Shown: positions 62,144 through 63,331 of the stretch, one piece after another
How positions within the stretch are numbered: the first letter of the stretch is position 1
Layout: every line of letters starts with the position of its first letter
From: Escherichia phage L27
Sequence record: LC473039.1
Length of the DNA: 64,000 nucleotides
Strand: one strand, 5' to 3'
The notes under the pieces: generated by a model
What the model was told of the DNA's origin: nothing
The model's database searches: none
The model's input: the letters and a program-made list of their open reading frames with translations, nothing else
Program-made: the position numbers and the translations under genes

Positions 62144-63331
62144 ATGGCGGTAGGTGAAATTCAAATTAGTGCCTTGCCTCAAGCAGCCTTACCAATTGAC
62201 CTTAGTGATATCTTCCATCTTAAGCAGGGTATTGAGGATAAGAGATGTACTCTTGAGCAATTACTTGCTCCACACTCAAGCCTAAGAAATAACCCTCATG
62301 GTGTTACTAAAACACAAATTGGTTTAGATAACGTCATCAATGCTCTTCAGTTAGTTGCTGCAAATAACTTATCAGACGTTACTAATGTAGCTCAGGCAAG
62401 AGCAAATCTACAGATTATGTCTTCAGAAGAGGTTAATAATCTTGTTCAACAGCATATTCAGGACAAGAGCAACCCACACAATACAACTAAGGCACAGGTA
62501 GGGTTGAGCAATGTCCAGAACTGGACAACATCGAACCTTTATAACGAAGATGCAGACAAGTACGCTACAGCAAGAGCAGTAAATAACTTGTACAAGGCTG
62601 TTCAGGCTTCCTATCCAGTAGGTACTATCCATCTTTCCATGAACTCTGCAAACCCTTCTACGTATTTAATTTGTGGAGGAACTTGGGAGTTAGTTTCAAA
62701 AGGTAGGGCATTGGTTGGTTATGACTCTGACACAAGACCAGCAGGCTCTGTATTTGGTGCTTCAACTGTCACTTTGTCAGTTAATAACATGCCACAACAC
62801 TCACACTCTGTGTCTCTTAGTGGTGGTGGTCATGCTCATAATGCAACTGTGTCAATTTCAGCTTTTGACTATGGAACTAAGACTACCAACTCTTTTGACT
62901 ATGGAACTAAGACCACTAACACAACTGGTAACCATAACCATGTTGGTAGTGGGTCAACAAGTTCTGCTGGTGCTCATAACCACAGATTGACCTATGAATC
63001 AGGTGGTGGTTTATCGGAAAGACCTGCAATGGTTTGGTCTTCAAGGAATGACCAATCATGGTACTCAGCAGATGCTGTCTGTGAAGTAGCTGGTGCACAC
63101 ACTCACTCTTTCAGTGTTACCACTAACACAACTGGTAACCACAACCATACGGTTGGTATTGGTGCTCACAGCCACACAGTTGGTATTGGTTCACATACAC
63201 ACAATGGTACTGTAACAGTTTCTTCTTCTGAGCATACGCATAGCGGGAACACTAATAGTGTTGGTGGTGGACAAGCTTTCAACATTGAGCAGCCATCCTT
63301 TGTACTGTATGTATGGCAGAGAACAGCTTAA
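62144..63331 (+). CDS. tail fibre / receptor-binding protein with HxH repeat tip domain
   Basis: C-terminal HSHSVS, GHAHNAT, NHNHVGSG, AHNH, HTHSFS, NHNHTVGIGAHSHTVGIGSHTHNG, HTHSGN repeats; tandem duplication FDYGTKTTN x2. Confidence 0.6.
   Translation: MAVGEIQISALPQAALPIDLSDIFHLKQGIEDKRCTLEQLLAPHSSLRNNPHGVTKTQIGLDNVINALQLVAANNLSDVTNVAQARANLQIMSSEEVNNLVQQHIQDKSNPHNTTKAQVGLSNVQNWTTSNLYNEDADKYATARAVNNLYKAVQASYPVGTIHLSMNSANPSTYLICGGTWELVSKGRALVGYDSDTRPAGSVFGASTVTLSVNNMPQHSHSVSLSGGGHAHNATVSISAFDYGTKTTNSFDYGTKTTNTTGNHNHVGSGSTSSAGAHNHRLTYESGGGLSERPAMVWSSRNDQSWYSADAVCEVAGAHTHSFSVTTNTTGNHNHTVGIGAHSHTVGIGSHTHNGTVTVSSSEHTHSGNTNSVGGGQAFNIEQPSFVLYVWQRTA

What the first reader, a model, noticed from the sequence alone, without database searches (positions are those of the whole stretch)
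62144..63331. Tail fibre with HxH repeat tip and an internal 30-bp tandem duplication
The C-terminal third has more than 10 HxH motifs embedded in Gly/Thr/Ser-rich repeats, as in metal-coordinating tail-fibre tips (T4 gp37/gp12-like). The DNA has a perfect-ish tandem repeat (CTTTTGACTATGGAACTAAGACTACCAAC / ...CCACTAAC at ~62860-62920) encoding FDYGTKTTN twice, suggesting recent slippage in a host-range determinant.
Basis: seen in the sequence. Interest (0 to 1): 0.45.

Follow-up and report, generated by a model that had tools for sequence, protein, structure and literature searches.

The report
Felix O1-type short tail fibre gene
This is the ordinary, already described short tail fibre gene of a Felix O1-like coliphage, and its "tandem duplication" is an old, conserved structural repeat that phage T4's gp37 fibre tip also has.

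Summary
The ORF at 62144-63331 (+, 395 aa) is real. It is the short tail fibre (STF) of a Felixounavirus, 98% identical in DNA to sequenced phages annotated "tail fiber protein". It matches Bas63 gp26 and VpaE1 gp74 by gene order, and Sf14 gp52 (68.8% identity).

Residues 146-367 match the crystallised T4 gp37 receptor-binding tip (PDB 2XGF, E=8.5e-27). All seven iron-binding HxH motifs of T4 align with HxH motifs here. There are nine HxH motifs, not more than ten.

The chain runs down a needle, forms a head at aa 281-316, and runs back up. So the distal tip lies in the middle of the HxH region. That head is the hypervariable part: 30% mean identity against 72-90% elsewhere.

The 30-nt repeat (62861-62920, 27/30 identical) is confirmed but is not a recent slippage:
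- T4 gp37 has the same two units at the same place.
- Almost every full-length Felixounavirus-type STF examined has at least two units.
- No one-copy variant exists among close relatives.

More distant relatives carry 0, 1, 3 or 4 units. The count tracks the number of 9-aa HxH units on the returning strand. The gp37-like reading is supported and was published in 2015 and 2025. The recent-duplication reading is not supported. Low interest.

The parts
62144..63331 (+). Short tail fibre (STF) gene, 395 aa plus stop. Orthologue of VpaE1 gp74, Sf14 gp52 and Bas63 gp26.
   Evidence: ORF list. 98.4% nt identity to Felixounavirus genomes. 99.7% aa identity to the KhF3 'tail fiber protein' and 68.8% to the Sf14 locus. 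PHROG 2097 tail fiber, E=6.8e-137. Synteny with VpaE1.
62144..62578 (+). N-terminal baseplate-binding region and short shaft (aa 1-145). Contains two ~60-aa units marked by NPHxxTKxQ[IV]GLxNV at aa 50-64 and 110-124.
   Evidence: This is the most conserved part of the protein (90% mean identity). Internal repeat by BLASTP of the two halves, E=3e-7. The role is inferred from the Bas63 STF baseplate-binding domain (PMC12609058).
62579..62788 (+). Collar domain (aa 146-215), with the gp10/gp11/gp12/gp37-D10 type fold.
   Evidence: Pfam PF21939 Gp10_C, E=1.1e-18, aa 154-261. PDB hits to T4 gp10 (2FKK, 5HX2) and to the gp37 collar.
62789..62983 (+). Needle, descending strand (aa 216-280): HxH at 219, 230, 264 and 278, with two FDYGTKTTN units in between.
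   Evidence: Aligns to T4 gp37 aa 870-931, with T4 H883, H915 and H929 aligned to H230, H264 and H278.
62861..62920 (+). The 30-nt tandem repeat: unit 1 aa 240-249 AFDYGTKTTN, unit 2 aa 250-259 SFDYGTKTTN.
   Evidence: TRF period 30, 2.0 copies. 27/30 nt identical. Homologous to T4 gp37 aa 891-910, [20 protein letters not shown].
62984..63091 (+). Head domain (aa 281-316, RLTYESGGGLSERPAMVWSSRNDQSWYSADAVCEVA). This is the predicted distal, receptor-contacting end, where the chain turns back.
   Evidence: It corresponds to T4 gp37 aa 932-963, between H929/H931 and H966/H968 (PMC6957217). It is hypervariable: 30% mean identity and 2.56 bits of entropy, against 0.4-1.0 bits elsewhere.
63092..63247 (+). 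Needle, ascending strand (aa 317-368): HxH at 319, 333, 342, 351 and 364.
   Evidence: Aligns to T4 gp37 aa 964-1011, with T4 H966, H980, H989 and H998 aligned to H319, H333, H342 and H351.
63133..63203 (+). 27-nt tandem repeat encoding the 9-aa units GNHNHTVGI, GAHSHTVGI and GSHTH... of the ascending strand.
   Evidence: TRF period 27, 2.0-2.1 copies. Units listed. The number of these units tracks the number of FDYG units across homologues.
63248..63328 (+). C-terminal segment (aa 369-395) returning to the collar. Contains the conserved EQPSxVxYxWxR motif.
   Evidence: 82% mean identity. Invariant Y389, W391 and R393. In T4, aa 1010-1026 complete the collar (PMC6957217).
63341..63358 (+). GC-rich hairpin just after the stop codon, between the STF and LTF genes.
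   Evidence: RNA fold gives -16.5 kcal/mol, z = -3.1. The strict terminator scan found none because the U-run is short.
61839..62141 (+). Context: 100-aa ORF immediately upstream, at the position of the Bas63 LTF platform (gp25).
   Evidence: ORF list. Same position as VpaE1 ORF073. Gene order wedge 2 (489 aa), wedge 1 (285 aa), platform, STF, LTF as given in PMC12609058. Assigned by synteny only.
63378..64000 (+). Context: 5' part of the long tail fibre (LTF) gene, cut by the end of the window.
   Evidence: The first 207 aa are 93% identical to the N-terminus of VpaE1 gp75.

Best explanation
The gene encodes the short tail fibre of a Felix O1-like myovirus (Felixounavirus).

Shown here: homology, domain order, motif positions, repeat conservation and the variability pattern.

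Inferred from T4 gp37 and the Bas63 cryo-EM work, not shown here: the protein forms a homotrimer. Its conserved N-terminus (aa 1-145) anchors to the baseplate wedge and forms a short shaft. Aa 146-395 form a T4 gp37-type receptor-binding tip.

Within that tip, the chain leaves a gp10-like collar and runs down a thin six-stranded needle. It forms a small head at aa 281-316 that touches the receptor, then runs back up to the collar. Along the needle axis each HxH motif from the three chains supplies six histidines to one metal ion (Fe2+ in T4). Nine ions are therefore predicted here against seven in T4. The two extra sites (H219/H221 and H364/H366) lie at the collar-proximal ends of the two strands in sequence.

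The two FDYGTKTTN units are not a fresh duplication. They are a conserved element of the descending needle strand. I infer that they run alongside the 9-aa GxHxHTVGI units of the ascending strand, because the two kinds of unit change number together across homologues.

Host specificity should reside mainly in the head, which is hypervariable and is exchanged as a cassette between fibres.
For: Identity of the gene:
- 98.4% nt identity to Felixounavirus genomes; 222 phage records matched.
- 99.7% aa identity to the KhF3 tail fibre and 68.8% to the Sf14 gp52 locus.
- Gene order and sizes of 489, 285, 100 and 395 aa followed by the LTF equal those of VpaE1 and Bas63.

gp37-type tip:
- phmmer against the PDB gives 2XGF, E=8.5e-27, aa 146-367.
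- BLASTP against full T4 gp37 gives 36% identity over 223 aa, E=4e-28, with all seven T4 HxH motifs aligned to HxH.
- Pfam Gp10_C collar, E=1.1e-18.

Published descriptions:
- VpaE1 gp74 aa 146-362 was reported as similar to T4 gp37 (PMC4690856).
- The Bas63 STF and LTF both have collar, HxH needle and head, with the chain doubling back at the head (PMC12609058).
- In T4 the tip lies between H929/H931 and H966/H968, with seven Fe ions (PMC6957217).

Head hypervariability: 30% mean identity at aa 281-316 against 72-90% in the other regions, over 76 distinct homologues.

Cassette exchange:
- P0016, 84% identical overall to the window protein, carries a T4-like head and is 50% identical to T4 gp37 over the whole tip.
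- P0018, 74% identical overall, carries the window-type head.

Age of the repeat:
- Two units are present in T4 gp37, in 21 of 33 viral loci, and in at least 36 of about 70 full-length proteins parsed.
- Co-variation of FDYG units with the run of 9-aa-spaced HxH units: (2,3) in 36 proteins, (4,5) in 7, (0,1) in 18, (1,2) in 2, (3,4) in 1. The 3-unit proteins P0029 and P0035 also fit (3,4) when read by hand.
Against: - No trimer model or coordinates could be examined. The AlphaFold2 monomer was poor (mean pLDDT 60) and Foldseek against the PDB gave nothing at E<=0.001.
- Metal binding, trimerisation and receptor contact are inferred by homology only.
- The strand-pairing reading of FDYG and HxH units rests on copy-number co-variation. 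There are a few exceptions: P0051 (4,3), P0061 (0,3), P0068 and P0069 (1,1).
- The receptor of this STF is unknown.
- T4 gp37 needs the chaperones gp38 and gp57A. No chaperone gene lies between the STF and LTF genes here, and I did not search the window for one.
Confidence: 0.9

Rival explanations
1. One reading: the two FDYGTKTTN units arose by recent replication slippage in this phage or strain, creating a copy-number polymorphism that alters host range.
For: The two units are 27/30 nt identical and encode the same 9 of 10 residues. Unit number does differ (0, 1, 2, 3 or 4) among more distant homologues.
Against: T4 gp37 has both units at the homologous site. Every relative at 74% identity or more has exactly two units and none has one. 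Length differences among close relatives (388-395 aa) come from the head, not the repeat. Two of the three differences between the units are synonymous, so the units are not freshly copied.
Confidence: 0.04
2. Copy-neutral homogenisation: in the common ancestor of the window/VpaE1 clade, unit 1 was overwritten by unit 2, either by intragenic gene conversion or by loss and re-duplication. This made an ancient repeat look young.
For: Identity between the two units is 23-27/30 in this clade, against 18-21/30 in other Felixounavirus clades and 16/30 in T4. The window's unit 1 resembles other clades' unit 2 (20-23/30) more than their unit 1 (17-21/30), and it ends in ...TTN like unit 2 elsewhere, rather than ...STS. 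Some synonymous states co-vary between the units: GGA/GGA against GGG/GGG, ACT/ACT in the window and ACA/ACA in L004.
Against: There are only 30 nt per unit under strong amino-acid constraint. Within the clade, typical members share only 4-5 of 8-9 synonymous codons, which is close to what other clades show. The sequences are phylogenetically non-independent. Over all haplotypes, the mean within-genome identity (21.7) barely exceeds the mean cross-genome identity (20.6).
Confidence: 0.35
3. The protein is the functional analogue of the T4 short tail fibre gp12: an irreversible LPS-core binder deployed after LTF binding, rather than a primary receptor finder like gp37.
For: It is the shorter of two fibres, about 430 A in Bas63. 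It attaches to the baseplate wedge and stays bound in all tail classes, and the Bas63 authors suggest T4-STF-like behaviour (PMC12609058). The collar fold is shared with gp12, gp10 and gp11 (PMC6957217).
Against: There is no sequence match to gp12 in the PDB search at E<=1. The tip architecture is that of gp37. The Sf14 authors call it a second long fibre that may bind a different receptor (PMC11821841). Order of deployment cannot be read from sequence.
Confidence: 0.4

Closest known systems
Felixounavirus / Ounavirinae short tail fibre (Bas63 gp26 STF; Sf14 gp52; VpaE1 gp74; 'gp37-like' of wV8 and Felix O1)
   Same: Same gene position: wedge 2, wedge 1, platform, STF, LTF. Same size (382-402 aa). 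69-99% aa identity. Same domain order: baseplate-binding N-terminus, collar, HxH needle, head.
   Different: It has nine HxH motifs and two FDYG units, whereas the Bas63 STF is reported with seven HxH motifs. The head sequence (aa 281-316) is one of many alternative cassettes.
T4 gp37 long tail fibre receptor-binding tip (PDB 2XGF, domains D10-D11)
   Same: 36% identity over 223 aa. All seven Fe-binding HxH motifs align, as do the two (S/T)xDxGTKxTx units, the gp10-like collar, and the hairpin topology with the head between the HxH motifs equivalent to T4 H929/H931 and H966/H968.
   Different: The tip sits on a 145-aa stalk attached directly to the baseplate, instead of on a ~1000-aa distal half-fibre joined through gp36, gp35 and gp34. 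Two additional HxH motifs lie next to the collar. The head sequence is unrelated. No gp38 gene lies downstream.
T4 gp10 / gp12 collar domains (Pfam PF21939 Gp10_C)
   Same: Collar aa 146-215 matches Gp10_C (E=1.1e-18) and the T4 gp10 chains 2FKK and 5HX2.
   Different: Only the collar is shared. gp10 and gp12 lack the long multi-HxH needle. gp12 was not detected by sequence.
Lambda Stf (orf-314) and other side tail fibres with gp37-like needles
   Same: tblastn matches lambda orf-314 over aa 235-354 at 47% identity, covering the FDYG and HxH needle units.
   Different: Different N-terminal fibre, different phage type, and dependence on a Tfa-type assembly protein (this last point is from my own knowledge and was not tested here).

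Membership tests
T4 gp37-type receptor-binding tip (collar-needle-head, PDB 2XGF) | Significant sequence similarity to the solved tip across collar, needle and head-flanking segments | tested here: met
   phmmer against the PDB: 2XGF, E=8.5e-27, query aa 146-367. BLASTP against full gp37: 36% over 223 aa, E=4e-28.
T4 gp37-type receptor-binding tip (collar-needle-head, PDB 2XGF) | HxH motifs at the positions of the seven iron-coordinating motifs of T4 (H883, 915, 929, 966, 980, 989, 998) | tested here: met
   They align to H230, 264, 278, 319, 333, 342 and 351. There are two further HxH motifs at 219 and 364.
T4 gp37-type receptor-binding tip (collar-needle-head, PDB 2XGF) | gp10/gp11/gp12-like collar domain preceding the needle | tested here: met
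   Pfam PF21939 Gp10_C, E=1.1e-18, 68.9 bits against a cut-off of 27. gp10 chains were hit in the PDB.
T4 gp37-type receptor-binding tip (collar-needle-head, PDB 2XGF) | Variable head inserted between the descending and ascending needle strands | tested here: met
   Aa 281-316 show 30% mean identity and variable length (29-67 aa) among homologues, flanked by conserved HxH motifs.
T4 gp37-type receptor-binding tip (collar-needle-head, PDB 2XGF) | Intertwined homotrimer with octahedrally coordinated Fe2+ on the axis | not testable with these tools
   Only monomer prediction was available. It gave pLDDT 60 and no significant fold match.
T4 gp37-type receptor-binding tip (collar-needle-head, PDB 2XGF) | Dependence on dedicated chaperones (gp38, gp57A) | not tested
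   No gene lies between the STF and LTF genes. I did not search the rest of the window for gp38 or gp57A homologues.
Felixounavirus short tail fibre (Bas63 gp26 / Sf14 gp52 / VpaE1 gp74) | Encoded directly after wedge 2 (489 aa), wedge 1 (285 aa) and the ~100-aa platform, and directly before the LTF gene | tested here: met
   ORFs of 489, 285, 100 and 395 aa, then the LTF N-terminus at 93% identity to VpaE1 gp75.
Felixounavirus short tail fibre (Bas63 gp26 / Sf14 gp52 / VpaE1 gp74) | Full-length sequence similarity to named members | tested here: met
   86% identity to the VpaE1 locus (L007). 68.8% to the Sf14 locus and 99.7% to KhF3. PHROG 2097, E=6.8e-137.
T4 gp12 short tail fibre | Sequence similarity to gp12 beyond the shared collar fold | tested here: not met
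   No gp12 chain appeared among the PDB hits at E<=1.
Recent slippage duplication / polymorphic tandem repeat | Copy-number difference among close relatives, or absence of the second copy in outgroups | tested here: not met
   All homologues at 74% identity or more have two units. The T4 gp37 outgroup also has two.

The most novel reading that the evidence does not exclude
The gp37-type needle may be built from two interchangeable module types. In one, both strands carry 14-aa HxH units. In the other, a 10-aa FDYGxKxTx unit on the descending strand partners a 9-aa GxHxHTVxI unit on the ascending strand. Needle length would then evolve by coordinated gain or loss of units on both strands. Observed combinations of FDYG units and 9-aa-spaced HxH runs are 0/1, 1/2, 2/3, 3/4 and 4/5. 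In the window's clade, unit 1 may additionally have been overwritten by unit 2 through intragenic conversion.
Probability: 0.45. Interest if true: 0.25.

Novelty: already known. Interest (0 to 1): 0.12.

Why it matters
It matters little beyond correct annotation. The gene is a known host-range determinant of a well-sequenced phage genus used in biocontrol and therapy, and its gp37-like tip architecture has been published.

Three practical points follow:
- The receptor-contacting part is the HxH-free head at aa 281-316, not the C-terminus and not the FDYG repeat. Host-range engineering or comparison should target that cassette.
- The near-identical 30-nt units are a conserved structural feature. 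They should not be read as a marker of recent change.
- The co-variation between FDYG units and 9-aa HxH units gives a simple, testable rule for how such needles change length.

Tried and rejected
- AlphaFold2 monomer prediction with a 35-sequence alignment gave mean pLDDT 60 and pTM 0.23, which is expected for an obligate intertwined trimer. Foldseek of that model against the PDB gave no match at E<=0.001. I discarded it as evidence and relied on sequence homology to 2XGF.
- I tried to read the T4 gp37 tip paper (PMC2996694) and the Hyman and van Raaij review (PMC5899708). Neither is held. Islam et al. 2019 (PMC6957217) was used for residue numbering instead.
- I guessed the Bas63 accession as MZ501108, which turned out to be Bas27. 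Orthology to Bas63 gp26 therefore rests on synteny and gene sizes, plus identity to Sf14 and VpaE1.
- The strict intrinsic-terminator scan found none after the gene. The hairpin at 63341-63358 is stable but has a short U-tract, so I did not call it a terminator.
- "VpaE1_ev78" (H19) looked like an evolved variant carrying this STF type. I did not follow it up, and nothing shows it is an experimental derivative.
- A statistical claim of concerted evolution was considered and kept only as a rival, because 30 nt per unit gives too little power.

Full report
**Observation.** The ORF 62144-63331 (+) exists and encodes 395 aa. A regex count gives nine HxH motifs, at aa 219, 230, 264, 278, 319, 333, 342, 351 and 364. 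Every histidine after aa 215 belongs to one of these motifs. In 10,000 shuffles of the protein the mean count was 1.4 and never exceeded 8. Tandem Repeats Finder confirms a 30-nt repeat at 62862-62920 (2.0 copies, 93% matches). In frame, the 30-nt units encode AFDYGTKTTN (aa 240-249) and SFDYGTKTTN (aa 250-259). They share 27 of 30 nt, and two of the three differences are synonymous.

**What the window is.** The gene is 98.4% identical in DNA to several Felixounavirus genomes, and 222 phage records match it. At protein level it is 99.7% identical to the annotated "tail fiber protein" of phage KhF3 and 68.8% identical to the Sf14 locus. The upstream ORFs of 489, 285 and 100 aa reproduce the gene order of VpaE1. 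So does the downstream ORF, whose first 207 aa are 93% identical to VpaE1 gp75. The order also matches the published wedge 2 (489 aa), wedge 1 (285 aa), LTF platform, STF (gp26), LTF (gp27) of Bas63 (PMC12609058). The gene is therefore the short tail fibre of a Felix O1-like phage.

**Homology of the tip.** phmmer against all PDB sequences gives the T4 gp37 receptor-binding tip 2XGF at E=8.5e-27 over aa 146-367, followed by the T4 gp10 C-terminal domain. BLASTP against full-length T4 gp37 gives 36% identity over 223 aa. All seven T4 HxH motifs (H883, 915, 929, 966, 980, 989, 998) align with HxH motifs here (H230, 264, 278, 319, 333, 342, 351). Pfam places a Gp10_C collar at aa 154-261 (E=1.1e-18).

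In T4 the seven HxH motifs coordinate seven iron ions, and the receptor-binding tip lies between H929/H931 and H966/H968 (PMC6957217). By alignment the head here is aa 281-316. The protein has two more HxH motifs than T4, at 219 and 364, and both are conserved in the family. I infer nine metal sites. The two extra motifs lie at the collar-proximal ends of the two strands in sequence.

The monomer AlphaFold model was poor and gave no significant fold match. The three-dimensional statements are therefore inference from homology.

**This is already published.** The VpaE1 paper (2015) reported gp74 aa 146-362 as homologous to the T4 gp37 adhesin (PMC4690856). The Bas63 cryo-EM paper (2025) describes both STF and LTF as carrying a gp37-like collar, an HxH needle and a head, with the chain doubling back at the head. 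It also notes that the receptor-binding tips are the variable parts. The Sf14 paper describes the orthologous 391-aa gp52 (PMC11821841).

**Where the variability is.** I aligned 76 distinct Felixounavirus-type STFs. Mean identity to the window protein by region:

| Region | Mean identity |
|---|---|
| N-terminus | 0.90 |
| Collar | 0.86 |
| Descending needle | 0.72 |
| Head | 0.30 |
| Ascending needle | 0.74 |
| C-terminal strand | 0.82 |

Head length ranges from 29 to 67 aa. Heads move between backbones. P0018 is 74% identical overall but carries the window-type head. P0016 is 84% identical overall to the window protein but carries a head close to that of T4 gp37 (HYIEAWNGTGVGGN...); its whole tip is 50% identical to T4. 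So the distal, specificity-bearing part is the HxH-free loop in the middle of the HxH region, not the C-terminus.

**The 30-nt repeat.** T4 gp37 has two units at the homologous position, [20 protein letters not shown] at aa 891-910. All relatives at 74% identity or more have exactly two units. Among 33 viral-contig loci, 21 have two units, four have three, three have four, and the distant Erwinia-type fibres have none. No close relative has one unit. Length differences among close relatives come from the head.

**A pattern not in the finding.** The number of FDYG units on the descending strand tracks the length of the run of 9-aa-spaced HxH units on the ascending strand. The parser's counts:

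| FDYG units / 9-aa HxH run | Proteins |
|---|---|
| 2 / 3 | 36 |
| 4 / 5 | 7 |
| 0 / 1 | 18 |
| 1 / 2 | 2 |
| 3 / 4 | 1 |

P0029 and P0035, which the parser listed as 3/1, also read 3/4 by hand. T4 itself is 2/3. There are a few exceptions, some of them from my regular expression. I infer that the two repeat types are partner strands at the same level of the needle.

**Why the two units are so similar here.** Identity between the two units is 23-27/30 in the window/VpaE1 clade, 18-21/30 in other clades and 16/30 in T4. The window's unit 1 resembles other clades' unit 2 more than their unit 1. This is compatible with an old copy-neutral conversion of unit 1 by unit 2 in the clade's ancestor. 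With 30 nt under strong constraint the signal is weak, so I keep it as a rival at about 0.35.

**Verdict.** This is a real gene that is correctly called a tail fibre with a gp37-like, metal-binding tip. That reading is supported but was already known. The "recent slippage in a host-range determinant" reading is not supported. Novelty: already known. Interest: low.

Noticed in passing
P0016 (homologue) aa 264-335 compared with T4 gp37 aa 915-986 (L002): A Felix-type STF that is 84% identical overall to the window protein carries a head and flanking needle very close to those of T4 gp37 (HYIEAWNGTGVGGN...SSYAxxYRAGG). This points to exchange of the tip cassette between Ounavirinae short fibres and Straboviridae long fibres, and possibly to T4-like OmpC/LPS specificity.
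   Followed up: partly
window 62144-62630 (aa 40-163): The shaft contains two ~60-aa units marked by NPHxxTKxQ[IV]GLxNV (BLASTP of the two halves, E=3e-7). Homologue P0049 (453 aa) has one extra unit and P0074/P0075 have one fewer, so fibre length also varies by whole shaft units.
   Followed up: partly
window 63133-63203: A 27-nt tandem repeat encodes GNHNHTVGI, GAHSHTVGI and GSHTH... on the ascending needle strand. Its unit number co-varies with the FDYG unit number across homologues.
   Followed up: yes
window 63341-63358: A stable GC-rich hairpin (-16.5 kcal/mol, z = -3.1) lies 10 nt after the STF stop codon and 20 nt before the LTF start. Its U-tract is short, so the strict terminator scan misses it. 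It may attenuate read-through into the LTF gene.
   Followed up: partly
window 58468-59091 (207-aa baseplate spike ORF): It has a single HxH at aa 188-190 (NEHTHHYYW), the same residue numbers as the metal-binding H188/H190 reported for the Bas63 puncturing apparatus.
   Followed up: partly
window 63077-63079 (aa 312 of the STF): The head of this allele contains a lone cysteine (ADAVCEVAG) just before the first ascending HxH. Three such Cys would come together in a trimer. Its significance is unknown.
   Followed up: no
H19, LR597663.1 (Escherichia phage VpaE1_ev78), record 51800-52987: This phage has the window-type STF over its full length (96.3% nt identity). The VpaE1 type strain matches only 86% of the gene, in two pieces, because its head differs. 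The STF head allele is therefore not tied to the rest of the genome.
   Followed up: no
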